A stretch of DNA of 62,786 nt. Source: a virus. Made by a program: the position numbers and the translations under genes. Location of the stretch: positions 1 through 62,786 of the IMG/VR virus record IMGVR_UViG_3300035429_000044, one strand, 5' to 3'. Positions 1-62,786 of the stretch are shown here, in pieces. The notes under the pieces were generated by a model that was given only the letters and a program-made list of their open reading frames with translations, searched no databases and was not told the origin of the DNA. Numbering within the stretch: position 1 is the stretch's first letter; each line of letters begins with the position of its first letter.

Positions 1-27
1 GTGCCCCCGGTGGGACTCGAACCCACA
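1..27. repeat. att core repeat, integrase-distal copy (orphan tRNA 3'-end fragment)
   Basis: gtgcccccggtgggactcgaacccaca is identical to 62760..62786. On the minus strand it reads as T-arm plus acceptor 3' strand (GTGGGTTCGAGTCCCACCGGGGGCA). No matching 5' acceptor strand (GCCCCCG) occurs in the next 100 nt, so this is not a full tRNA. The repeat length is window-limited. Confidence 0.85.
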
Positions 28-164: not shown

Positions 165-186
165 TGTGTCCAAACTGTGTCCAAAC
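165..186 (+). promoter_or_regulatory. Tandem 11-mers TGTGTCCAAAC x2; putative integrase arm-type binding sites (distal arm)
   Basis: This is a perfect tandem duplication preceded by a T7 run. A near-identical pair (CGTGTCCAAAC TGTGGCCAAAC, also after a T-run) lies at 62667..62688 on the other side of the att core, in the same orientation. Confidence 0.5.
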
Positions 187-3651: not shown

Positions 3652-4452
3652 CTAGTCATGTGTTTTGTTGAGTGTGTCGATGATGGCGTGCTCCCGTGGT
3701 GAGAGCGTCCAGACGAAATCGTTGGCCGCTTTGGCCGCTTTGGCCGCTTTGGCCGCTTTGGCCGCTTTGGCCGCTTTGGCGTACCGTGCCTGCAATGCGT
3801 GGCTCATGAGGAACCCGTTGCCGAAGATGCTTTTGCCGGCTGTTTTTTGGCTGTCGAGCCTGCTGATGCGAGCCACCTCGCTGCGGGAGATGCGCAGGTC
3901 GATTCCGTAATGGTCGAGCTGGCCGACCCGGCTGACGGTGAGCACCTCGCCCGGATATTGGTATGACGGCAATGGCGTGGGCTTGTGCGCGTCCTGCACG
4001 GCGCTGATCGCCTGTGACAGGCCGGGCGCGGTGCGAATGAAATCGTCGCCCAATGTGGTGAGAAACGCGGTCTTGACCTTCGCGCCGTTCTCATAGACGA
4101 TCGTCGTGTCGGTGACGATGTGGTTGACCGGAATGTCTGCGCTGAAATTGGTCAGGTATGGTGCGAAGAGAAAAAAATCGATATCATGCTCGAGGTACCA
4201 TCGGCAGATCTTCGAGAGGATGCTGAATGGCGGATTGTCGATGACGACGCACTCCGCCGGGTAGGTTTCGTGCTGGTAGTCGCCACCCGGCCAGAACGGG
4301 CGCACAACCGGCCTGCCCTGGATCCCGTATTCGTCGCTCACCCATTGCAGGACCGTGGCATACACATCGGGGGGGGTATAGCAGTCATCCGTGGTTTTCT
4401 TCGGTTTGAATTTGTCGACGAACGCCTCGTACTCCAGTTCGCCCTGCTCCAT
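3652..4452 (-). CDS. Orphan N6-adenine DNA methyltransferase (EcoRI-methylase-like family, tentative)
   Basis: 266 aa. It has the motif IV-like VIDNPPFS and the N-terminal KKTTDDCYTPPDVY. There is an AAGGAG RBS. No adjacent restriction gene is present. Confidence 0.7.
   Translation of the reverse strand: MEQGELEYEAFVDKFKPKKTTDDCYTPPDVYATVLQWVSDEYGIQGRPVVRPFWPGGDYQHETYPAECVVIDNPPFSILSKICRWYLEHDIDFFLFAPYLTNFSADIPVNHIVTDTTIVYENGAKVKTAFLTTLGDDFIRTAPGLSQAISAVQDAHKPTPLPSYQYPGEVLTVSRVGQLDHYGIDLRISRSEVARISRLDSQKTAGKSIFGNGFLMSHALQARYAKAAKAAKAAKAAKAAKAANDFVWTLSPREHAIIDTLNKTHD
3724..3780 (-). repeat. In-frame 9-bp tandem repeat (ggccgcttt x6) encoding (KAA)6 inside the methyltransferase
   Basis: Six perfect units plus a partial unit are read directly from the sequence. 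The protein reads YAKAAKAAKAAKAAKAAKAAND. Confidence 0.95.
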
Positions 4453-8687: not shown

Positions 8688-11600
8688 TCACACCTCCTGA
8701 ACCGTTGCGCTGCCGCCGACGTATTGCAGGCTCATGTGTCCGTTGTCTCGTGGCAGGAACGCGAAATTACCGATACGCAACGTGTTCACGACCTCCGCGT
8801 TGTTGATGTACAGGCGGTCGTTCGACACGTAGGCGGCGACAGTGTTGCCCGCACGGAATTGCATCATCGTCGAGGTCAATTGCACGCTGTACGCGTCCGC
8901 GTTCGTCAGGTCGCCGATGGTCAACCCGTTGTTCGGGTCGAACTGCATGTACTGTTTACGTGCGTCGATCTCCTCGTCCAACCGGTCTGCGGTCGCCCCA
9001 ACCTGTGTCTGCACATTCGTGACGGATTCACCCAATGCGTCGGTCGTCTGAGTGAACGTGGCGAGCGGCGTATACGAATCATGCACCTCGTCGGTCAGGT
9101 CGGATACACGGCTATCCGCCGCGATGCCCGACGTGCCCAAGTCCACGGCACCGTCAGCCGCGAAACTGATGACCGTATGGCCGCCATGCGTGACCGTCAA
9201 CCCGGCAGACGTGATGCTCACCCGGTTGTCCGCGTCCGTGCTCGTATAGATGTTCGTGCCGACCATCTCGCCGGCCGAAATGGTCGGCGCGTTGAACACG
9301 GCGTTCGTGGAAATGGCGCCGTCGAGTTTGAGCTCACCCGTGGCTGCGGTGAACGTCATCGAGTATTCCTCTTTGCCGTTGTTCTTGTATGCGAACATGC
9401 CGCCGTCGGTAATGACCATGCCACGGTATTTCTTCGCGGCTTCACTGGACTGCCACTCGGTGTTCGTGCGGATGACCGCACCCGTGATGGCTGCGCCCGA
9501 TATTTCCCCGCCCGACTGGATGGCGCCTTTGAGGGAGAGCACCCACTGGCCGTCATCGTTTTTCGCATACGACAAATGGTCACCGAACACAACGCCATCC
9601 GAGTTGAGGCGGGCAACGGTGTGTTTGTCCGCACCGCTGCCAGTAGTGAGCTGGTAGTCGGCGCCCTCGATACTGCCGCCGCTGATCGCCGGCGTGCTGA
9701 TGCCGGCCCCGATGATGTTGACCGACTGCAGGATCGCCTCACCGGTTTTCGCGTCCAATGTGACGACCGGATTACCGGACGAGTCCACCATCGTGAACCC
9801 GTTGTTGTTGAGCTGGATGCGCTCGTTCGACGTGAGGAACGCGCCGCCTTTGACGACCGCACCGTCGAAAAAATCCGCCGACACGAGACCCGCGCTCACG
9901 GTGCCGCGCACGAACAAACTGTCCGCGGCGAGCGTGAGGTCAGCCCACCGCGTGCCGTTCCACGTCCAGATATGTTCGACCTCGCCTGAATGGTCGACGA
10001 GCACGGAAACGGAATTGTTCGGTTCGCCCATCCAATATGTTTCGAGTGGTTTGCTCGACGTCTGCCACCATTCGTCACCCGGTTTGAGTAGATCATAGTT
10101 GGGCTGCTCCGGTTGCACGAAGCGTTTGTTCTTGCTGTCGGCGGTGGTCTGGGCTCCGATGACGGCCGCCTCCGCGGCCTCCAGGCGGGCGTTCGAGTTG
10201 GCTAGATCAGTTTCGAGCTTGCGGGCGAGCTTGGTCGCCTGCTCGGCCTGCTGTTCCGCCTCATACACGAGCGTGACGTCCGTGATGGAGGCGTCGTCGA
10301 AATACGCGTTCACGGGCTGGTTGAACGCGATTCTGGCGCGAATGTATTTCACGCCGTCGGGGATGACCGCCTCCTGCACGGACTCAGCCCACGTATCCCC
10401 GGTGAATACCATGTTGACAAGCGGCTTGAAATCCGTCCACGACGTACTGTCGGTGACCGTGGTGGAGGGCGTATACTGCAGGCGCAAACCACCATTGTCA
10501 TTGCCCGACAGGGCGGTGAGCAGTTTGTACCACACGCGGAACCGGTACCGGCTGCCCACCGTCACCGCGACGGGCTTCGTGCTGACCAGCTCCCGCGTGC
10601 CCGCACTGCCGTTGAGATAGGCTCGCCACCCACCAGAGCGGCACCATGGGCTCTGCTGGGCGAATCCAGCCCCGGCCACATTAGTCGTCCAGCCTTCCGC
10701 GCCATGCTCGAACCCACCGTTAAACAGCAATTCCTCAACTTGTGTGGACAGCACGTTGAGCAGTGCCTGCGCGCTGGCCGCGGCCTGTGCAGCAGTGTTC
10801 GCGGTGGCCGCGGTGATCGCGTGCGCCTTGTCGAGACGGTCGACCTCACCAGCCGTGGTCTGGCTGAGCGTGTCCGCGTTCTGCGCGAGTCTCGCCGCAT
10901 CCTCCGCGCTGTTCTGCGCGGCCTGCGCCATTTTATAGGCGCCCGACTGCGTGACCTCCGTCCACGCCCACTGCCCATCGCTGTAATCCACACGCGTGGA
11001 CGTCCACAGATTGCTCGCCCGGTCCAACGCGGGCTCCACCGCGCTCCACGCACCCTCGGGGTTCTTGCCGGCCGGTTTGGCCGGCTTCGACACGGCGAGC
11101 ACATAGTAGGGGGTGATCGCGGTCACGCTCACACCAGTCGCACCCGTCGCGCCCTGCGGGCCAGCCGGGCCGGTCGGACCAGTCGCACCCGTGGCACCTT
11201 GCGGGCCAGCCGGCCCCTGTGGGCCGGTCGCACCCGTGGCGCCCTGTGGGCCCTGTGGGCCGGTCTCACCGGGCGCGCCCTGCAGACCCTGCTGCCCCAT
11301 GGGGCCAGTATCACCCGTCACCGGTGTCGCGCCCGTGACCGTCGTGCGCCCGCCGCCGTAGGTGATCTTGGTGCGCATCCACACTGTCGCACCGGCTGGA
11401 CGGGTCACATTCCCGGTCGTCCACCCGCTCGTCGGGGCCGCGGTGGCGCCACCCACCGCATACTCGATCGTCGAGCCGGTGATGGTCTGCGCGGCGTTGT
11501 CCGTGGCGAGCTGCTTCGCCGCGTTCGCGGTCCGCTCCGCACCCTCGGCCGTGCCCTTCGCCGCGTTCGCGGTCCCGGTCGCTTTTTCGATGTCCTTGGC

Positions 11601-12437
11601 CTGCTGCTCCTGCGTACCCTCCACGCTCTCCACACGCGACACCGTGTCGAGCATGTCCTGCTTCACACTGGCGACGTCCGTCACCATGCCAGCGTAATCG
11701 CCCTTGAGTTTCTCGGTCTCCGTTTTGATGGCGGCCGTCGTCTCACGTGCTGCCTTGTCCGCCTCCGCACGCAGGTAGGCTTCCTGTTCGAGCCCCTCAC
11801 GGTTCGCCTCAATCGCCTGCTGTGCCTCGGTGATCGTCGTGTTCACCTTGTCGATCTGCGCTTTCACGGATTCATCCGCCGCCGCCAGGATGTTGTCGGC
11901 GGCCTCGTCGAACTCCTGTTGGCTGACGATGGGTAGAATCTCCACCTGCACATGCTCGGATTCCACCGACTCGTTAAACGCCGGGGAACCGTCCCTGTCG
12001 TGCGCGTTGTCCAATGCGGTGGCCCACACGTCCAACGTGGTGCCCGCAGCGAACACACCCGTGTTCACCTCACCAGCAGACGAAAGCACACCCACCAACG
12101 TCTTCTCATCCGCCGTGGCGCCCACCTGTTTCGCCCAGATTTGCACACACCGGAAATCGGACGGAATGCCACCTTCCAATTCCCCGCCCCAGCGAATAAG
12201 CGCGGTACCAAGATGCGAGGTTGCTTCAATGTCCAACGGCTTGCCGGGCGGGGTCGTGTCCCCCACCCACGGCGCCACACCATTCACACCCAACACCGTG
12301 TCCGACCCGTCACGGTTGGGCACGACGATCACGCCGGCGGTACGCGCCGCGTTGTCCGTGCCCAGCAGACGGTTGGCTCGCGCCGCCATGAACGGCAGCG
12401 CCGCATCGTCCGGGTTCAGTTCCTCATGAATCGCCAT
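8688..12437 (-). CDS. Large tail fibre protein with coiled-coil and collagen-like segments
   Basis: 1249 aa. It carries about 20 Gly-X-Y triplets, long Ala/Gln-rich coiled coils and a position downstream of the tail tip genes. Confidence 0.8.
11133..11315 (-). repeat. Collagen-like Gly-X-Y repeat region (aa ~375-435 of the fibre)
   Basis: [61 protein letters not shown]. Confidence 0.9.
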
Positions 12438-33914: not shown

Positions 33915-33933
33915 CACCCCCAACCAGCAAAAG

Positions 33934-34026
33934 CGGATAGTGCACGATTCGAACGTGCGGAACACGGAGTTCACCGCATTCGACGCATTAGCAATGCGCT
34001 GCTATAGACCACTCAGCCAACTATCC
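33934..34026 (-). tRNA. tRNA-Ser (anticodon GCU), class II with long variable arm
   Basis: I folded it by hand. Acceptor GGATAGT/ACTATCC plus discriminator G. Anticodon stem GCGCA/TGCGT with loop TTGCTAA. T-arm GCACG-TTCGAAT-CGTGC. 93 nt, CCA not encoded. Confidence 0.8.
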
Positions 34027-34137
34027 AAAGCGGGGCGTTCCAGAAAGAACCGAAAGAAGCGGAACACCCCTGATTACAAGAACCCGACCGTTGAAAGGAA
34101 CGGAAACGAGAAGGGAACACCTACACGGTCGGGCCAG

Positions 34138-34211
34138 TACCGGAAGCGGGATTCGAACCCGCACTACAACGATTTTGAGTCGCTTGCCTCTACCAATTGG
34201 GCCACACCGGC
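34138..34211 (-). tRNA. tRNA with anticodon CAA but class I (short variable arm) architecture; identity uncertain
   Basis: T-arm GCGGG-TTCGAAT-CCCGC. Anticodon stem AGCGA/TCGTT with loop CTCAAAA. D-loop AATTGGTAG. The acceptor stem has two G:U pairs and one U:U mismatch. Confidence 0.55.
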
Positions 34212-34728: not shown

Positions 34729-34749
34729 CGGGGTACCCTCCCCTGCCCC

Positions 34750-34875
34750 TATGCGTACGCGCACATGCGTACGCGCACATGCGTACGCGTACACGCGCAC
34801 ACGCGCACACGCGTACACACGCGTACACACGCGCGCACACGCGTACACACGCGCACACGCGCACACGCGTACGCG
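34750..34875. repeat. 126-bp perfect alternating pyrimidine/purine tract built from ACGCG(C/T)AC-type units
   Basis: Counted base by base. The alternation is unbroken from t34750 to g34875, followed by a further 14 nt after one break. Confidence 0.95.
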
Positions 34876-58522: not shown

Positions 58523-58763
58523 CGCGCACCCCCTCCCCTGCCGCCGGGTTTATCCTGTTGAGGAGCGGGACGAGGATACGGTCGCAGACCGCCTCATAGT
58601 GCGAGATCGCATCCCGCAGCCGTTCGGCCTGTTTGGGGTGGCCGTCACGCTCCGCGCGCTTGAGGTTGACCTCGAGCGCGTCACACCACGCATGCAGGTG
58701 ACGGTCGACGTCATCGAGCGCGGTCATGTACCCCGGCCTGAACCCGTATCCCTCATCGCTCAT
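58506..58763 (-). CDS. Hypothetical protein (85 aa)
   Basis: ORF coupled to the Cro-like gene. Confidence 0.55.
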   Translation of the reverse strand: MSDEGYGFRPGYMTALDDVDRHLHAWCDALEVNLKRAERDGHPKQAERLRDAISHYEAVCDRILVPLLNRINPAAGEGVRDEHGA

Positions 58764-59023
58764 CGCTCACTCCCTTCTTTGTCTGCGAGCGCCTTGGTGG
58801 CGCTGAAATCCGGTGACAGCAGCCCAGCCCCGTCGATGCCCCAATGGCGGGCCAGCAGCTCGATTTCGTCGAGTGTGTACGAATACCGGCGTGCCAGGCG
58901 GGCCTTGAGTGTGGAGAGGGGTATATTGGTGTTAGCTGAAAGCTGCTCGATGCTCTCATGGGTGGCTCCGCGCATGGAATCGATGTTCGTCGCGGCGATG
59001 CTGTTCAGACTGCGATAGTTCAT
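58760..59023 (-). CDS. Cro-like HTH regulator
   Basis: 87 aa. It carries ..SIEQLSANTNIPLSTLKARL.. and is divergent from the CI-like gene. Confidence 0.7.
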   Translation of the reverse strand: MNYRSLNSIAATNIDSMRGATHESIEQLSANTNIPLSTLKARLARRYSYTLDEIELLARHWGIDGAGLLSPDFSATKALADKEGSER

Positions 59024-59101
59024 GCGAACTATTCTAGTTCAGATGGACTAGAAGCGCAACCCGATTGGACTATTTGGCGTGTCGGTGGGATAATCTGGTT
59101 C
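59024..59101. promoter_or_regulatory. Genetic-switch intergenic region with operator-like repeats
   Basis: A 78-nt divergent region. It contains the inverted repeat ttctagt-N8-actagaa (59032..59053) and recurring (G/A)ACTATT half-sites. Confidence 0.55.
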
Positions 59102-59536
59102 ATGGAAACTATCGCAACTTTTCGTCAGGCCATGGCGCAAATCATGAAGGGGCGCATGGCATTCCATGGAGTCAAACAAGCCGAAACCGCAGAAGCCATC
59201 GGAATAAGCCAGTCGCAACTCTCAAAAATCCTGCGCGCCGATCGACCGATAGACCTCGAAACATTCGAGGCCCTATGCACATTCCTCGGCGACGACGCCG
59301 CGGCACTAGTAGCCCAGGGCGGGGCGCTCGCAGATCGCAGCACAACCAACGACAACACCGACAAATCTCAGGATGCGCTCGCAGACGCCAATACAGCCGA
59401 TAGGGCGCCAGATATGTCTGGATGGACCGCTGACGAGCAGGCAGACTATATCGCCAACCATCTCGACCAATTCGATTATGCGGCCAAACGTGGCGACACC
59501 GAGGCTGAGCAGCTGGCATACGAGGAGATGCCATAA
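59102..59536 (+). CDS. CI-like XRE-family repressor
   Basis: ..GVKQAETAEAIGISQSQLSKILR.. is an HTH_3 pattern. It has an acidic C-terminal half and is the first gene of the lysogeny operon. Confidence 0.8.
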   Translation: METIATFRQAMAQIMKGRMAFHGVKQAETAEAIGISQSQLSKILRADRPIDLETFEALCTFLGDDAAALVAQGGALADRSTTNDNTDKSQDALADANTADRAPDMSGWTADEQADYIANHLDQFDYAAKRGDTEAEQLAYEEMP

Positions 59537-59667
59537 CAGTTTCCCGCGCTCGCTTCAGAGCGTGGATAAAAGAGAAGGAGGCCCATTATGGGTAACGTTG
59601 TGGAGGCAAGGGCTATTGTTCACGGGTCAGGTTCGACGGGGATTCGCTGATCTTCGAGTTCAATGGC

Positions 59668-60414
59668 ATGCATAAATCTACGTTGGGCATGGATTCCGCG
59701 GTCATTCCCGTGGCAAGCATCGTGGATGTGACGATGAAGAAGTCCACTTGGATGACGAATGGCGTCCTATGCGTGCAGGTGATGCTGCCGGATGGCCAAG
59801 TGAGCGAGGCGATAGACAATCCTGCACTGGCGATGGATAGCCCGTATTGTGCCAGTATCATGCGGACGAGGCAGGGTGAGTTCGACGCGTTGGTCGCCGC
59901 AGTGGGCGCGGCTCTGCCTGCCGTCCCGGTGCCAGCGGCCCAGAATCTGTTCCTGCTGACCAAGAGTGCCCGCAAACAGGCCAGTGGGATTGTGTCAGCA
60001 CGCGGCGCAAGCGTCCAGTCTGAGGTCGGAAACGTCACCGCGCCGGTAAGGAATATTCCCGCCGGCACTCCGGACTTCGCCACTCATGGGCAGAAAGTGG
60101 CCAAATTCAAGGGAGATGATGGGACAACTTTCCATCTGTACGAGCATGCAATCCGCTGCGGGCTCGAAGAGTACCCGTTAACCGGCGTGGTTTCCACTGT
60201 CGAAGACGGATCAGCACTTCAAGAGCGCCTGACCGCGACACGAATCTTCCTGGCAGGCCCGTTCGCGTTGGCATTCAAAAAGCGTAAGGGTGGCGAGAAG
60301 TGGCTCAGCATCGTCGGTCCTGATTTCGCATGGATCGCAAAAGCGAATATGAAGCACATCTCGGATGCCATGAAATTCTCAGCACAAGTGAACAACCAAG
60401 CTCGCAGGCAATAG
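59668..60414 (+). CDS. DUF4429/bacterial PH-like hypothetical protein (5' end probably disrupted; see findings)
   Basis: The ATG-initiated track ORF. The same frame stays open upstream and reads VRFDGDSLIFEFNG. A strong RBS plus an ATG sits at 59588 in another frame. Confidence 0.6.
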   Translation: MHKSTLGMDSAVIPVASIVDVTMKKSTWMTNGVLCVQVMLPDGQVSEAIDNPALAMDSPYCASIMRTRQGEFDALVAAVGAALPAVPVPAAQNLFLLTKSARKQASGIVSARGASVQSEVGNVTAPVRNIPAGTPDFATHGQKVAKFKGDDGTTFHLYEHAIRCGLEEYPLTGVVSTVEDGSALQERLTATRIFLAGPFALAFKKRKGGEKWLSIVGPDFAWIAKANMKHISDAMKFSAQVNNQARRQ

Positions 60415-60440
60415 GCAAAACACGTCGAAAGAGAAGAGCC

Positions 60441-61109
60441 ATGGATTACCTGCTTTTATACGCACTCTTGCTGCTTGGCGTGGCTTTCGTCGTCAAACCA
60501 TTCATACAGACCGACTCCAATAGCGGCAAGCAAAAAACACCTACTACCGCGGGTGCGGCCGACGGCGGCATATCGGCCGGCAGGCCCCTGCATTCATCCG
60601 AGGACTGTCTAGACCCCGTTTCCGAGCGCGCACTATTGGACGAAGACGGCGCCATCGAACGCATGCGGTTGAAAGACATAAGGCGAGCGCCCAATGGTGA
60701 TAAACTCGAGCGCGCTCTCTACCTCACTTTGGATGGGCACATCATTAATCCAGAGTCACGCTCCTTGTACCGATATGGGCTCTATGTGGCACCGGTACGA
60801 GGCGCGGCATACCGTCGGGAGCGAGATCTTATAGACGCCGATACGTCGCCCGGCAGTTCGGCGATATTGGAACGCGAGCCAGACAATGAGCACGATCCGA
60901 ACGCGATCATCATTCGGGATGCAGCAAATGGCCGGCACGTAGGGTATGTCAACAAACTCACTGCGAAACGGGTAGCCAAAATACTCGATGACGACCCCGG
61001 CGCGCTGCGCGCCGTCTTCATACGTGGCGATGGTCCGGGCATCTACGCTTCGCCCATGCGGATACTAATCGCCTCGCCCGAACGTCTAAGACGGCTGTTC
61101 TGGAAATAA
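60441..61109 (+). CDS. Membrane-anchored HIRAN-domain protein
   Basis: An ATG at 60441. The N-terminal helix is YLLLYALLLLGVAFVV. The HIRAN-like core is VAPVRGAAYRRE..AILEREPDNEHDPNAIIIRDAANGRHVGYVNKLTAKRVAKILDD. Confidence 0.7.
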   Translation: MDYLLLYALLLLGVAFVVKPFIQTDSNSGKQKTPTTAGAADGGISAGRPLHSSEDCLDPVSERALLDEDGAIERMRLKDIRRAPNGDKLERALYLTLDGHIINPESRSLYRYGLYVAPVRGAAYRRERDLIDADTSPGSSAILEREPDNEHDPNAIIIRDAANGRHVGYVNKLTAKRVAKILDDDPGALRAVFIRGDGPGIYASPMRILIASPERLRRLFWK

Positions 61110-61181
61110 TCTCAGTCCAAGAGATCGCATTGGATTTGTCCACTTTTACGAGAAGGGGTTTTTACGTCTGAGGAAGCGTTA

Positions 61182-61556
61182 ATGGCGGAGGCCGCGCGGA
61201 TCTGCCGATTGAGGGAAACGCGTCTGCGCGATGGATTGCAGGGCTTGTATGTGCGTGAAAAACATTTGATTCTGTTGGATACGCGTTTGCGTGGCGTGCA
61301 GTTGTGCTGTGTGCTGGCGCATGAGATCAGTCATGCGCGGCATATGGACGCGGGCTGCCGCGTGGATAAATGGGTGGAGCGGCGCGCGGACCAGGAGGCG
61401 GCGCTCATGCTCATAGATCCGCTCGAATACGCCTACGCGGAGACCATCTACGAAGGCAATGCGGTGGGCATGGCACGCGAGCTCAACGTGCTCCCATGGG
61501 TCGTGCAGGCGTATCGCGAGCGCCTGCATGATGATCCGTATTTGGTGCTGCAGTAG
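61182..61556 (+). CDS. ImmA/IrrE-family metallopeptidase
   Basis: 124 aa with the HExxH motif (LAHEISHARH). It lies immediately upstream of the integrase. Confidence 0.8.
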   Translation: MAEAARICRLRETRLRDGLQGLYVREKHLILLDTRLRGVQLCCVLAHEISHARHMDAGCRVDKWVERRADQEAALMLIDPLEYAYAETIYEGNAVGMARELNVLPWVVQAYRERLHDDPYLVLQ

Positions 61557-61564
61557 GAGGCGTT

Positions 61565-62659
61565 ATGGCGAATATCACGGCGTATGAGACGGCTGCTGGC
61601 CGGCGTTGGGAGGTGCGCTACCGCAAGCCCAATGGGCGGAGTACGCGTAAGCGTGGGTTTGAGCGGCGTCGTGACGCTGAGGCGTGGATGGCGGAGCATG
61701 TGGTCACGGCGATCGCGACCAACTCGTATGTGGCGCCGTCTGCGGGCGCGATGACGGTGGGCATGCTGTGGGGTAAATATGTGGCTGCGCATGAGGGTGT
61801 GTGGAAGCCGTCGCATTTGCGCACTCAGGACAGTGCGTGGCGGGTGCATGTGGCTCCGGTGTTCGGCGAGCGCCGTATCGCGTCTATTGTGCCGAGTGAT
61901 GTGCAGGCGTGGGTGTCGTCGATGAGCTCGAATGGGGCGTCGGCGTCGACGGTGTTGCGTGCGTTTGGCGTGCTCAAGGGGATCATGGAGATGGCACAGC
62001 GGGATAGGCTTATCGCGCATGCGGATTGTGTCGAGCATATCCAGTTGCCACATAAGCCGTCTGGCAAGGAGGACCGGCATTATCTGACGCCCGAGCAATT
62101 GGTCGCGTTGGCGGCTGAGAGCGGCTCTCATGGGCTGCTGGTGCTCGTTTTGGGGTTGTGTGGCCTGCGGTGGGGTGAGGCGAGCGGTCTGCGCGCGCGT
62201 GACGTGGACGTGGATAAGGGCGTCCTGCATGTGCGTCGCACGATCACCAAGGTGGGCACGCGGTATGTGGAGGGTGTGCCGAAGAGTTGGGAGCGGCGTG
62301 ACGTGCCGGTGCCCGCGAGCCTCCTGCGCCGTCTGCAGGCGTCCCTCCCCCATGACCCTGACGCGCTGGTGTTTTGCGAGGCTGATGGGCATGCGTTGCG
62401 CCAGCAGTCGTCGTCTCCGGCGTGGGGCTGGTGGTCGCGCGCCCTGGAACGTGCGGGGCTGGAGCGCATGACATGCCATGACCTGCGGCATACGGCCGCG
62501 AGCATCGCGGTGAGCAGCGGGGCGAACGTGAAAGCGTTGCAGCGGATGCTGGGCCACAAGTCGGCCGCGATGACCTTGGACGTGTACGCGGATCTGTTCG
62601 ACGAGGATCTGCTCGGCGTGTCCACGCGCGTCGACGAGCGCGTCCAGAGCCTGCTCTGA
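61565..62659 (+). CDS. int: Tyrosine integrase (phage integrase family)
   Basis: 364 aa. It has an N-terminal SAM-like/arm-binding part and the motifs ..GLCGLRWGEASGLR.., HDLRHTAAS and LGHKSAAMTLDVYADL. It is adjacent to the att/tRNA. Confidence 0.95.
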   Translation: MANITAYETAAGRRWEVRYRKPNGRSTRKRGFERRRDAEAWMAEHVVTAIATNSYVAPSAGAMTVGMLWGKYVAAHEGVWKPSHLRTQDSAWRVHVAPVFGERRIASIVPSDVQAWVSSMSSNGASASTVLRAFGVLKGIMEMAQRDRLIAHADCVEHIQLPHKPSGKEDRHYLTPEQLVALAAESGSHGLLVLVLGLCGLRWGEASGLRARDVDVDKGVLHVRRTITKVGTRYVEGVPKSWERRDVPVPASLLRRLQASLPHDPDALVFCEADGHALRQQSSSPAWGWWSRALERAGLERMTCHDLRHTAASIAVSSGANVKALQRMLGHKSAAMTLDVYADLFDEDLLGVSTRVDERVQSLL

Positions 62660-62666
62660 TTTTTTT

Positions 62667-62688
62667 CGTGTCCAAACTGTGGCCAAAC
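62667..62688 (+). promoter_or_regulatory. Tandem 11-mers CGTGTCCAAAC TGTGGCCAAAC; putative integrase arm-type sites (proximal arm)
   Basis: It matches 165..186 at 20 of 22 positions, in the same orientation, on the opposite side of the att core. Confidence 0.5.
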
Positions 62689-62710
62689 GGCCCTGCGGCC
62701 TGAAATCGGG

Positions 62711-62750
62711 AAGACCGGAGAATGTTGGAATCTCAACGTTCTCCGGTCTT
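62711..62750. terminator. 12-bp hairpin between the integrase and the tRNA 3' end
   Basis: aagaccggagaa-N16-ttctccggtctt, followed by tgtcc. Confidence 0.65.
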
Positions 62751-62757
62751 TGTCCTC

Positions 62758-62786
62758 TGGTGCCCCCGGTGGGACTCGAACCCACA
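62758..62786 (-). tRNA. 3' portion of a tRNA gene (encoded CCA, acceptor and T-arm) continuing beyond the window; identity not determinable
   Basis: The minus strand reads ..TGTGGGTTCGAGTCCCACCGGGGGCACCA. The anticodon lies outside the window. Confidence 0.8.
62760..62786. repeat. att core repeat, integrase-proximal copy
   Basis: Identical to 1..27. Confidence 0.85.

What the first reader, a model, noticed from the sequence alone, without database searches (positions are those of the whole stretch)
59588..61109. Cargo pair (PH-like/DUF4429-type protein plus membrane-anchored HIRAN protein) wedged inside the CI-ImmA-Int lysogeny operon
Five genes follow each other on the + strand: CI-like repressor, a ~250-aa protein, a 222-aa protein, ImmA/IrrE protease (HEISH) and integrase. 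The gaps are 51, 26, 72 and 8 nt, and I see no hairpin terminator before 62711. The ~250-aa protein opens with the xFDGxxLxI pattern (VRFDGDSLIFEFNG). The 222-aa protein has one N-terminal hydrophobic helix and a textbook-looking HIRAN core (EREPDNEHDPNAIIIRD..GRHVGYV..AKRVAKILD). Repressor/ImmA pairs are normally adjacent. Here two unrelated genes sit between them, in the one transcript a lysogen keeps making, which is the classic location for superinfection-exclusion or abortive-infection genes. HIRAN domains are known to bind free 3' DNA ends. Anchoring one to the membrane is an unusual architecture that would place it where incoming phage DNA ends appear. I know of no described defence system with this composition. 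By eye the segment is also more AT-rich than its flanks, suggesting a recent moron acquisition.
Basis: partly seen in the sequence, partly recalled or inferred. Interest (0 to 1): 0.7.

Follow-up and report, generated by a model that had tools for sequence, protein, structure and literature searches.

The report
Two independent cargo genes in lysogeny operon
A Bifidobacterium temperate phage carries two unrelated, swappable passenger genes between its repressor and its repressor-cleaving protease: a frameshifted relative of a proven lactococcal "keep other phages out" protein and an intact membrane-tethered DNA-end-binding (HIRAN) protein; they are not a two-gene system, and the kind of locus is already known.

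Summary
The five-gene + strand layout, the gaps (51/26/72/8 nt) and the HIRAN call are correct. The "~250-aa" gene is frameshifted. ATG 59588 is out of frame with VRFDGDSL because one base is missing between 59607 and 59608. The same deletion is in five independent assemblies, so it is a real allele. Intact relatives are 275 aa.

That protein has two PH-like domains. The N-terminal one is DUF4429-type. The C-terminal one is 49% identical to Lactococcus prophage bIL309 Orf2 (Sie309), a tested superinfection-exclusion protein that sits in the same repressor-to-integrase position.

The 222-aa protein has an N-terminal membrane helix, a disordered linker and a HIRAN fold. Its type was already named ThaL in pneumococcal prophages, with no function tested.

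The two genes co-occur only in near-identical cassettes. More distant relatives of each occur alone. The repressors share a conserved C-terminal tail and the M78/ImmA-like protease is conserved. Three related loci have them adjacent. Others carry AbiD, RhuM/PDC-S05, PDC-M24B, HSDR_N, bPH_1 or lipoproteins between them.

Verdict: a variable defence-cargo slot holding two independent genes that probably act at the membrane. It is not a new two-gene system. The untested membrane-HIRAN function is the only part of real interest.

The parts
59066..59094 (+). Promoter-like site (TGGACT, 17 nt, TG-GATAAT) upstream of the repressor. It is the likely lysogenic promoter of the operon.
   Evidence: Consensus scan. 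The count of such sites is not above the shuffle expectation, so this is only suggestive.
59102..59536 (+). CI/Xre-type HTH repressor, 144 aa. The last ~45 residues (59407-59536) are a tail conserved across repressors whose HTH domains differ. The tail is the probable recognition element for the ImmA-like protease.
   Evidence: Pfam HTH_3 E 7e-9. The tail profile hits the last gene before the cargo in 20+ loci. Homology with L001, L008 and L012 starts exactly at 59407.
59544..59565 (+). 8-bp GC-rich hairpin just after the repressor stop codon, with no U tract. Possibly an attenuator or processing site. It is not a classical terminator.
   Evidence: Fold, (66-nt segment, z = -2.56). The sequence is conserved in L001 and L002.
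59588..59650 (+). Remnant start of the PH-like gene. ATG with a GGAGG ribosome-binding site, then a 20-codon frame closed by TGA. One base is missing between 59607 and 59608 relative to intact 275-aa alleles.
59668..60414 (+). Remaining 248-aa frame of the tandem PH-like protein. The frame is open from 59593 and its first start codon is ATG 59668. It comprises an N-terminal DUF4429-type PH domain that lacks its first three strands, a disordered linker, and a C-terminal Sie309-like domain with a conserved hydrophobic loop followed by KKRKGGEK.
60441..61109 (+). Intact membrane-anchored HIRAN protein, 222 aa. Transmembrane helix at residues 3-21 (60447-60503), disordered linker about residues 18-43 (pLDDT < 50), folded module at residues 50-220 with the HIRAN core at residues 113-211 (60777-61073).
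61182..61556 (+). ImmA/IrrE-like (M78-type) metalloprotease, 124 aa, HEISH motif. It is the conserved right-hand border of the cargo slot.
   Evidence: phrog_87 metalloprotease E 3e-10. Pfam M78 and DUF6782 are only sub-threshold. A cluster member is named 'ImmA/IrrE family metallo-endopeptidase' by NCBI. 55-88% identity across loci, with an invariant HExSHA..D.GC..W.ERRA core.
61565..62659 (+). Tyrosine integrase, 364 aa, with an arm-binding N-terminal domain.
   Evidence: Pfam Phage_integrase E 4e-22, Arm-DNA-bind_4 E 3e-4. phrog_1 E 2e-62.
62645..62750 (+). End of the operon. A terminator-like hairpin with a T run lies at 62645-62658 and a 19-bp hairpin at 62711-62750. The arm-type repeats GTGKCCAAAC x2 (62668-62688) lie between them.
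62760..62786 (.). 27-nt att core, the 3' end of tRNA-Leu(CAA). It is identical to window 1-27.

Best explanation
WHAT IT IS
The segment is the variable cargo slot of a Bifidobacterium temperate-phage lysogeny operon: repressor, cargo, ImmA-like protease, integrase.
- The true functional pair is the repressor and the protease. The repressor's conserved C-terminal tail is most likely what the protease recognises and cuts at induction, as in ImmR/ImmA.
- The conserved DNA on both sides lets cargo be swapped by recombination.

THE TWO CARGO GENES
This phage holds two independent cargo genes, both predicted to act at the inner face of the cell membrane.
(1) A tandem PH-like protein.
- Its conserved C-terminal domain is homologous to lactococcal Sie309, which blocks phage DNA injection.
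- By homology and position it is a superinfection-exclusion protein.
- In this phage lineage it has a fixed 1-nt deletion at codon 8. It is therefore either dead or made only as a 248-aa protein with a broken first domain.
(2) An intact ThaL-like protein.
- It has an N-terminal membrane anchor, a ~30-residue flexible tether and a cytoplasmic HIRAN module.
- My inferred mechanism: it captures the free 3'-OH end of linear DNA entering through the membrane. The DNA could come from a superinfecting phage, or possibly from transformation or conjugation. Capture would stop the DNA from being circularised, replicated or recombined.

SHOWN VERSUS INFERRED
- Shown: gene structure, folds, homologies, the frameshift, slot variability and the lack of co-conservation.
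- Inferred: co-transcription from the repressor promoter, membrane topology, and both protective functions.
For: SLOT
- In L016, exactly 59537-61219 is replaced between conserved flanks.
- Tail and protease are adjacent in L019, L020 and L022. They are 0.7-2.9 kb apart elsewhere, with AbiD (three loci), PDC-S05/RhuM, PDC-M24B, HSDR_N, bPH_1 and lipoproteins between them.
- The repressor tail is conserved although the HTH domains differ, and the protease is conserved.

PH-LIKE GENE
- Intact 275-aa relatives exist.
- AF2 gives two beta-sandwich-plus-helix domains. Foldseek hits are PH and double-PH proteins.
- BLASTP against bIL309 Orf2: 49% identity over 94 aa, E 1e-19. tblastn: E 5e-12.
- bIL309 has the order cI, orf2, int on one strand.
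- orf2 is sie309, reported to give resistance to 936 phages by blocking DNA injection (PMC6127208, citing McGrath 2002 and Mahony 2008).
- The same domain sits just upstream of the integrase in Actinomyces phage xhp1 and next to integrases in 9 of 14 viral loci.
- Of the 150 best of 894 cluster representatives, most match only this C-terminal domain.

FRAMESHIFT
-.

HIRAN GENE
- Pfam, fold and HLTF alignment, with the invariant EPxNExDxNA core.
- The transmembrane helix is conserved in relatives at 49-97% identity.
- The N flank is acidic (MD) and the C flank basic. By the positive-inside rule this puts HIRAN in the cytoplasm (inference).
- It lies directly upstream of the protease in all 10 loci that carry it (L008-L014 here; also L001, L002 and the window).
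- Transmembrane-plus-HIRAN genes sit directly upstream of integrases in the unrelated viral contigs L054 and L057.
- thaL is a precedent.

INDEPENDENCE
-.
Against: - There are no expression or phenotype data for any Bifidobacterium member.
- Homology to Sie309 covers only the C-terminal ~94 residues. Sie309 has a SHOCT tail that this protein lacks. Sie proteins are reported to be very phage-specific.
- I could not read the primary Sie papers, only later papers that cite them.
- The PH-like gene is frameshifted here, so it may contribute nothing in this phage.
- No function has been tested for any membrane-anchored HIRAN protein.
- Topology rests on the positive-inside rule alone. An outward-facing HIRAN is not excluded.
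- The hairpin after the repressor stop codon could attenuate read-through. High-GC Actinobacteria are said to use terminators without U tracts (my own recollection).
- The HIRAN gene's constant position directly upstream of the protease could reflect a functional link rather than slot geometry.
- The loci sampled are few and not phylogenetically independent.
Confidence: 0.68

Rival explanations
1. The PH-like protein and the membrane HIRAN protein form one two-component defence system, for example a sensor plus an effector, of a composition not described before.
For: The genes are adjacent with a 26-nt gap and co-directional. They are found together in the window, L001, L002 and L035-L039, even where the repressor HTH and the integrase differ, as in L001.
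Against: - All co-occurrences are one cassette at 93-100% identity, so they amount to one evolutionary event.
- L065 (79% identity), L003/L004 (56%) and L005/L006 (44%) have the PH-like gene without HIRAN.
- L008-L014 (60-64% identity) have HIRAN without the PH-like gene.
- None of 25 HIRAN viral loci and none of 14 PH-like viral loci has the partner within 4 kb.
- The lineage in this window tolerates a frameshift in one partner while the other stays intact, on 23 contigs.
- The PH-like protein has no PADLOC hit.
Confidence: 0.06
2. The membrane HIRAN protein is not a defence gene. It is an accessory of the switch: a DNA-end or DNA-damage sensor that modulates the ImmA-like protease and so modulates prophage induction.
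For: - In every locus that has it, the HIRAN gene lies immediately upstream of the protease gene (10 loci).
- HIRAN domains recognise 3' ends at damaged forks (established for HLTF; PDB entries).
- What activates ImmA-type proteases after DNA damage is poorly understood (my own knowledge).
Against: - The repressor-protease pair exists without HIRAN in many related prophages: L003, L015-L023 and L065.
- The slot's other occupants are classic defence genes such as AbiD and PDC-S05.
- A membrane tether is an odd place for a sensor of chromosomal damage.
- Pneumococcal thaL sits in a prophage with a C1-type regulator, not an ImmAR-type one.
Confidence: 0.12
3. The HIRAN protein protects the prophage itself rather than excluding phages. 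It would block incoming transforming or conjugative single-stranded DNA, which enters 3' end first. That would prevent 'chromosomal curing' of the prophage by homologous recombination.
For: The paper that named thaL concerns the arms race between prophages and transformation (PMC12637031). HIRAN binds 3'-OH single-stranded ends (HLTF structures). The membrane tether would place it near a DNA-uptake channel (inference).
Against: That paper reports no test of thaL. Natural competence is not established in Bifidobacterium (my own knowledge). Nothing in the locus points specifically to competence.
Confidence: 0.1
4. The segment is decaying passenger DNA with no current function. The PH-like gene is a pseudogene and the HIRAN gene is a hitch-hiker.
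For: A frameshift at codon 8 is fixed in this lineage. No function is demonstrated.
Against: - The HIRAN frame is intact. The exact protein is on 159 contigs. Window and L001 differ by 13 synonymous against 6 non-synonymous changes, dN/dS 0.15.
- Downstream of the frameshift, the PH-like frame has no further lesions. Against intact alleles its dN/dS is about 0.1. This could simply mean the lesion is recent.
Confidence: 0.1

Closest known systems
Lactococcal prophage superinfection-exclusion protein Sie309 (bIL309 Orf2; the same gene is annotated 'Sie system' in proPhi1)
   Same: - The core domain is homologous: 49% identity over 94 aa, including the hydrophobic loop and the KKKKGGEK...GPDF motif.
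- Same place and strand, downstream of the cI-type repressor and upstream of the integrase.
- Both are constitutively expressed lysogeny-module cargo according to PMC6127208.
   Different: - Sie309 is 192 aa: an N-terminal region, the core domain and a SHOCT tail.
- The Bifidobacterium protein has an extra N-terminal DUF4429-type PH domain and no SHOCT tail.
- It sits between the repressor and an ImmA-like protease rather than next to the integrase.
- The copy in this window is frameshifted.
- The host is an actinobacterium, and no phenotype is known.
[quoted passage not shown]
   Same: Same architecture class (membrane anchor plus HIRAN) and same genomic niche, the lysogeny module of a temperate phage.
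   Different: - The ThaL prophage has a C1-type regulator, not an ImmA-type pair.
- The cited paper reports no test of ThaL's function.
HLTF/Rad5 HIRAN domain
   Same: Same fold (Foldseek E 1e-6, TM-score 0.6 on the target length). The core motif aligns, EREPDNEHDPNAI against QRDPNNPYDKNAI.
   Different: The eukaryotic domain is fused to a SWI/SNF ATPase and a RING domain and acts at stalled forks. Here it is a stand-alone module with an extra ~60-residue N-terminal subdomain, tethered to the membrane.
PADLOC candidate PDC-M03 (HipA kinase plus HIRAN protein, HipI-type)
   Same: The HIRAN protein hits the PDC-M03B models, best E 1.2e-7.
   Different: The match covers only the HIRAN domain. No HipA-like partner is among the four neighbouring genes searched. 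PDC-M03 needs both genes (PMC13245101). PDC-M03B proteins are proposed antitoxins, not membrane proteins (PMC11706625).
ImmR/ImmA (ICEBs1, phage phi105) and IrrE/DdrO repressor-protease pairs
   Same: An HTH repressor plus a small HEXXH M78-type protease in one operon with the integrase. They are adjacent in the relatives L019, L020 and L022.
   Different: The protease is only 124 aa and is below Pfam's M78 threshold. The repressors carry a family-specific conserved C-terminal tail. The pair is split by a cargo slot in most members.
Defence-gene hotspots of temperate phages: the integrase-to-repressor region of cluster N mycobacteriophages, P2/P4 hotspots, lactococcal and streptococcal sie/ltp loci
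   Same: A fixed position flanked by conserved genes, expressed from the prophage, with interchangeable defence cargo such as AbiD and PDC-S05.
   Different: Here the slot lies inside the repressor-protease pair. As far as I know, this position has not been described as a hotspot in Bifidobacterium.

Membership tests
HIRAN domain (Pfam PF08797) | Sequence match above the curated threshold | tested here: met
   E 7.2e-11, 42.2 bits against a cut-off of 24.7, residues 113-185.
HIRAN domain (Pfam PF08797) | HIRAN fold | tested here: met
   AF2 pLDDT 81.6. The 17 Foldseek PDB hits with E <= 0.001 are all HLTF HIRAN or lp_0118; Rad5 follows at ranks 18-19. Best E 1.2e-6, probability 1.0.
HIRAN domain (Pfam PF08797) | Conserved pocket residues that hold the 3'-terminal nucleotide in HLTF (N91, Y93 and D94, numbering from memory) | tested here: inconclusive
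   The alignment puts N149, H151 and D152 opposite them. N149 and D152 are invariant and H151 nearly invariant in 12 relatives. The HLTF residue roles are recalled, not checked here, and binding is untested.
ThaL-type membrane HIRAN proteins of lysogeny modules | Transmembrane segment plus HIRAN domain in one protein | tested here: met
   Hydropathy 2.41 over residues 4-22, helix in the AF2 model, conserved in P0020-P0025. No dedicated topology predictor was available.
ThaL-type membrane HIRAN proteins of lysogeny modules | Encoded in the lysogeny module of a temperate phage | tested here: met
   Between the repressor and the protease/integrase in the window and in L001, L002 and L008-L014.
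ThaL-type membrane HIRAN proteins of lysogeny modules | Sequence relatedness to pneumococcal ThaL beyond the HIRAN domain | not tested
   The ThaL sequence is not in the tools' collections. tblastn against the phage records found only one streptococcal hit, Javan409, which has a C-terminal anchor.
Lactococcal Sie309-type superinfection exclusion proteins | Homology to the Sie309 core domain | tested here: met
   49% identity over 94 aa, E 1e-19 pairwise and 5e-12 against 2.3 Gb. Both hit phrog_26783.
Lactococcal Sie309-type superinfection exclusion proteins | Gene lies in the lysogeny module, co-directional with repressor and integrase | tested here: met
Lactococcal Sie309-type superinfection exclusion proteins | Intact coding sequence | tested here: not met
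   A 1-nt deletion at codon 8 in the window and in L035-L039. Intact in L001, L002 and clusters P0001-P0004.
Lactococcal Sie309-type superinfection exclusion proteins | Membrane association | tested here: inconclusive
   There is only a conserved 11-13-residue hydrophobic loop followed by KKRKGGEK. It is modelled with pLDDT < 50 and is too short for a membrane span.
Lactococcal Sie309-type superinfection exclusion proteins | Blocks DNA injection and gives phage resistance | not testable with these tools
   Needs plating and DNA-entry assays.
DUF4429 (Pfam PF14472) | Sequence match above the curated threshold | tested here: not met
   20.3-20.4 bits against a cut-off of 25 for the window-derived sequence and for P0001, although the whole profile (1-94 of 95) is matched. 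Family member P0007 scores 39.4 bits. So it is a divergent member by transitivity only.
PADLOC PDC-M03 (HipA + HIRAN) | HIRAN component (PDC-M03B) | tested here: met
   Best E 1.2e-7, domain region only.
PADLOC PDC-M03 (HipA + HIRAN) | Adjacent HipA-family kinase (PDC-M03A) | tested here: not met
   None of the four neighbouring proteins hits it. The system is defined as 2 of 2 genes.
ImmR/ImmA-type repressor-protease module | HTH repressor | tested here: met
   HTH_3 E 6.9e-9.
ImmR/ImmA-type repressor-protease module | M78/ImmA-type HEXXH metalloprotease | tested here: inconclusive
   Pfam Peptidase_M78 E 0.066, below the cut-off. phrog_87 'metallo-protease' E 3e-10. HEISH plus a downstream ERRAD-EAA motif is invariant. 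NCBI names a cluster member ImmA/IrrE.
ImmR/ImmA-type repressor-protease module | Genes adjacent in one operon | tested here: not met
   They are 1.65 kb apart in the window. They are adjacent in the relatives L019, L020 and L022.
ImmR/ImmA-type repressor-protease module | Protease cleaves the repressor | not testable with these tools
   Supported only indirectly, by the conserved tail co-occurring with the conserved protease.

The most novel reading that the evidence does not exclude
The membrane-tethered HIRAN protein (ThaL type) is a new kind of single-gene exclusion factor. It holds a 3'-OH-end-binding module on a flexible leash at the inner face of the membrane. There it captures the leading end of any linear DNA that enters, from a phage or from transformation or conjugation, and blocks its establishment. 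It recurs in lysogeny modules of Actinobacteria and Firmicutes, with either N- or C-terminal anchors.
Probability: 0.3. Interest if true: 0.7.

Novelty: new member of a known kind. Interest (0 to 1): 0.35.

Why it matters
If the reading is right, three things follow.
- Bifidobacterium prophages have a well-defined, recombination-ready defence hotspot inside their repressor-protease pair. That gives a simple anchor (repressor tail plus protease) for mining defence genes in a genus that matters for gut health, where phage-host biology is poorly known.
- The lactococcal Sie309 core domain belongs to a much wider family. The profile search found 894 cluster representatives at 50% identity, and no Pfam model covers the domain. 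Its members sit next to integrases in several phyla.
- The membrane-anchored HIRAN protein is an intact, widespread, named but untested gene class. It has a clear and cheaply testable hypothesis: capture of 3' DNA ends at the membrane.

Tried and rejected
- A megablast of the 3.9-kb region against 50,697 phage records found nothing.
- NCBIfam gave no family for the PH-like, HIRAN or protease proteins.
- PADLOC gave nothing for the PH-like protein. The PDC-M03B hits for HIRAN turned out to be domain-only hits to a HipA+HIRAN candidate system, so I rejected that membership.
- Many apparent 'HIRAN' literature hits were the author name Hirano.
- A search for DUF4429 in the paper library found no paper.
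- Mahony et al. 2008 (PMC2570291) is not held, so the Sie309 phenotype is cited second-hand.
- I considered a sequencing error for the frameshift. I rejected it because the identical lesion is in five independent assemblies.
- I considered programmed -1 frameshifting. The GGGG run in ACG GGG ATT would allow a tRNA-Gly slip back into the correct frame. There is no canonical slippery heptamer, and the product would still carry 11 wrong residues in place of the first strands. I judged it unlikely but did not exclude it.
- I considered GC content as evidence of recent acquisition. I rejected it because the block is typical of the phage as a whole.
- The internal promoter-like site at 59834-59861 is not above chance (2 sites found, 1.8 expected).
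Full report
1. WHAT IS IN THE SEQUENCE

The window is a Bifidobacterium temperate-phage genome.
- Exact copies of its proteins occur in gut metagenomes and in MAGs labelled B. adolescentis.
- Members of the same 90%-identity integrase cluster are annotated in B. pseudolongum.

Five genes follow each other on the + strand at its right end:
- an Xre/CI-type repressor, 59102-59536;
- a PH-like gene, 59588-60414;
- a 222-aa HIRAN gene, 60441-61109;
- a 124-aa HEISH metalloprotease-like gene, 61182-61556;
- a tyrosine integrase, 61565-62659.

- A promoter-like site with an extended -10 lies at 59066-59094.
- The only convincing terminator-like elements follow the integrase.
- An 8-bp GC hairpin without a U tract lies right after the repressor stop, at 59544-59565. 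It is conserved in relatives. It is the one feature that could weaken the single-transcript assumption.

2. THE PH-LIKE GENE IS FRAMESHIFTED

- ATG 59588 has a GGAGG ribosome-binding site, but its frame stops after 20 codons.
- The VRFDGDSL... frame is the -1 frame, and its first start codon is ATG 59668.
- Relatives at 93-96% identity are 275 aa and begin MGNVVEAKGYCSRVRFDG.
- DNA alignment shows one base missing between 59607 and 59608.
- The identical deletion, with a linked synonymous change, is in five further assemblies from NCBI, ENA and JGI, including human and mouse gut samples. The exact 248-aa product was read on 23 contigs.
- So the lesion is a real, circulating allele.
- Downstream of the lesion the frame is clean. 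Against intact alleles dN/dS is about 0.1. This is compatible with a recent lesion or with use of the 248-aa product.

3. WHAT THE TWO PROTEINS ARE

HIRAN protein
- Pfam HIRAN is above threshold.
- The AF2 model (pLDDT 81.6) shows an N-terminal helix, a ~30-residue disordered linker and a folded module at residues 50-220.
- The best PDB matches are HLTF HIRAN domains bound to DNA.
- The EPxNExDxNA core is invariant in 12 relatives and aligns with the HLTF motif.
- The hydrophobic N-terminus is strong and conserved down to 49% identity.
- Its acidic N flank and basic C flank predict a cytoplasmic HIRAN module. This is an inference from the positive-inside rule.

PH-like protein
- The AF2 model of the intact homologue (pLDDT 74.7) has two beta-sandwich-plus-helix domains joined by a disordered linker.
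- Foldseek returns only PH and double-PH proteins at the top. PDB E-values are weak, but the fold class is consistent.
- The N-terminal domain matches the whole DUF4429 profile. It is below threshold here and above threshold in family member P0007.
- The C-terminal domain is the most conserved part. It has an invariant T.TR...G..A.A.KK..GGEK....GPDF.W motif. No Pfam model covers it.
- A profile search of 1.84 billion representatives found 894 relatives. Of the 150 best listed, most match only this domain.

4. THE LINK TO A TESTED SUPERINFECTION-EXCLUSION PROTEIN

- tblastn of the intact homologue against phage records hit Lactococcus prophage bIL309 Orf2: 49% identity over 94 aa, E 5e-12, and E 1e-19 pairwise.
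- In bIL309 and proPhi1 this gene lies between the cI-type repressor and the integrase on the same strand. In proPhi1 it is annotated 'Sie system'.
- PMC6127208 states that bIL309 orf2 is sie309 and is expressed in the lysogen. When expressed in MG1363 it gave resistance to several 936-group phages by blocking DNA injection. The paper cites McGrath 2002 and Mahony 2008. I could not read the primary papers.
- A single-domain relative lies just upstream of the integrase in Actinomyces phage xhp1.
- Nine of 14 further viral loci with this domain have an integrase next to it.

5. THE TWO GENES ARE NOT A PAIR

They co-occur only in one cassette at 93-100% identity: the window, L001, L002 and L035-L039.

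The PH-like gene occurs without HIRAN:
- at 79% identity (L065: tail, PH-like gene, protease, integrase);
- at 56% (L003/L004, where an HSDR_N protein precedes it);
- at 44% (L005/L006, next to the integrase at the other prophage end).

The HIRAN gene occurs without the PH-like gene at 60-64% identity (L008-L014: repressor, HIRAN, protease).

None of 25 HIRAN viral loci and none of 14 PH-like viral loci has the partner within 4 kb.

6. WHAT THE LOCUS REALLY IS

- All repressors in these prophages end with the same ~45-residue tail, ...PDMSxW..EQAxYIAxHLDQFDxAAKxGDTEAEQxAYEEMP. Their HTH domains differ.
- The 124-126-aa protease is conserved at 55-88% identity.
- In three Bifidobacterium loci (L019, L020, L022) tail and protease are adjacent. 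Elsewhere 0.7-2.9 kb of cargo separates them.
- That cargo includes AbiD in three loci, RhuM/PDC-S05, PDC-M24B, an HSDR_N nuclease-like protein, a bPH_1 protein and predicted lipoproteins or membrane proteins.
- L016 shows a clean swap. Its repressor is 91% and its protease plus integrase 89% identical in DNA to the window, but 59537-61219 is replaced.
- L001 shares only the stretch from the tail (59407) to the protease end, plus the integrase.
- Hence the repressor and the protease are the functional pair, by analogy with ImmR/ImmA. The space between them is a defence-cargo hotspot. The finding's two genes are two independent occupants of it.

7. MECHANISM

For the PH-like gene, homology and position point to Sie309-like exclusion at the membrane.
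- The conserved hydrophobic loop plus polybasic stretch would suit a peripheral membrane anchor (inference).
- In this phage the gene is crippled.

For the HIRAN gene no experiment exists.
- Membrane-anchored HIRAN proteins recur. L054 and L057 have N-terminal anchors and lie directly upstream of an integrase. L040-L042 and Javan409 have C-terminal anchors.
- The most economical hypothesis is capture of the 3'-OH end of entering linear DNA.
- I hold a regulatory role with the protease, or an anti-transformation role, as less likely rivals.

8. COMPARISON AND VERDICT

- PDC-M03 membership is rejected because there is no HipA partner.
- The GC argument is weak. The block is 55.9% GC, the window is 58.8%, and most of the phage is 55-57%.
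- The locus is a new member of known kinds: Sie-type lysogeny cargo, a ThaL-type HIRAN protein and an ImmA-type switch. It sits in a hotspot position that, as far as I know, has not been described for Bifidobacterium.
- Interest is moderate to low for the finding as stated. It is higher for the untested membrane-HIRAN idea.

Noticed in passing
window 1-27 and 62760-62786; L035 6093-6392; L002 9143-9219: The window is a circularly closed phage genome in attP form, not an excised prophage with two att sites. Its ends are the same 27 nt. In L035 the sequence after the integrase runs straight into the window's left end. In L002 the same core is the 3' end of a host tRNA-Leu(CAA) next to pyruvate kinase.
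   Followed up: yes
window 166-186 and 62668-62688: Two tandem copies of GTGKCCAAAC lie on each side of the att core: 4 matches against 0.36 expected, and none of 100 shuffles reached 4. They are probably arm-type binding sites for the integrase, which has an Arm-DNA-bind_4 domain.
   Followed up: partly
window 59407-59536 and the last ~45 codons of the repressors in L001-L023 and L065: Repressors with unrelated HTH domains (101 to 294 aa) share one conserved C-terminal tail and are always linked to the same small M78-like protease. This looks like a modular design: an exchangeable immunity specificity joined to a common protease-recognition tail.
   Followed up: partly
L015-L023 (Bifidobacterium castoris, criceti, cuniculi and MAGs), between repressor tail and protease: The slot carries AbiD (L017, L021, L023), RhuM/PDC-S05 (L023), PDC-M24B with DUF1828/DUF1829 (L017), an HSDR_N protein (L003, L018), bPH_1 directly upstream of AbiD (L021), and predicted lipoproteins or membrane proteins (L015, L016, L023).
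   Followed up: partly
window 33933-34211: The phage carries tRNA-Ser(GCT) and tRNA-Leu(CAA). The latter has the same anticodon as the host tRNA used as the integration site.
   Followed up: no
window 34734-34875: A ~140-nt tract of degenerate CA/CG-rich repeats (ACGCGCACA-type units, spacing 8 to 14 nt) lies about 0.5 kb from the two tRNA genes. Function unknown.
   Followed up: no
window 11126-11305 and 3713-3784: 9-nt-periodic repeats lie inside large minus-strand ORFs. One is a Gly-X-Y-like (collagen-like) tract in the 1249-aa ORF 8688-12437. The other is five to six copies of TTGGCCGCT in ORF 3652-4452.
   Followed up: no
L036 2427-2869; L021 6863-7365: Other lesions in the same module elsewhere. 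The repressor of L036 is called as two pieces (71 + 89 aa). The M78-like gene of B. cuniculi (L021) is split into two frames.
   Followed up: no
L067/L068 2114-4342: In these viral contigs the order is M78-like gene, then a long open frame (up to 562 codons stop-to-stop) ending in the Sie309-like domain, then the integrase. This is a different architecture and order for the same parts.
   Followed up: no
window 58760-59023 (- strand): An 87-aa ORF with no domain evidence is transcribed divergently from the repressor across a 78-nt intergenic region. From its position I take it to be the Cro-type partner, and the region to be the presumed genetic switch.
   Followed up: no
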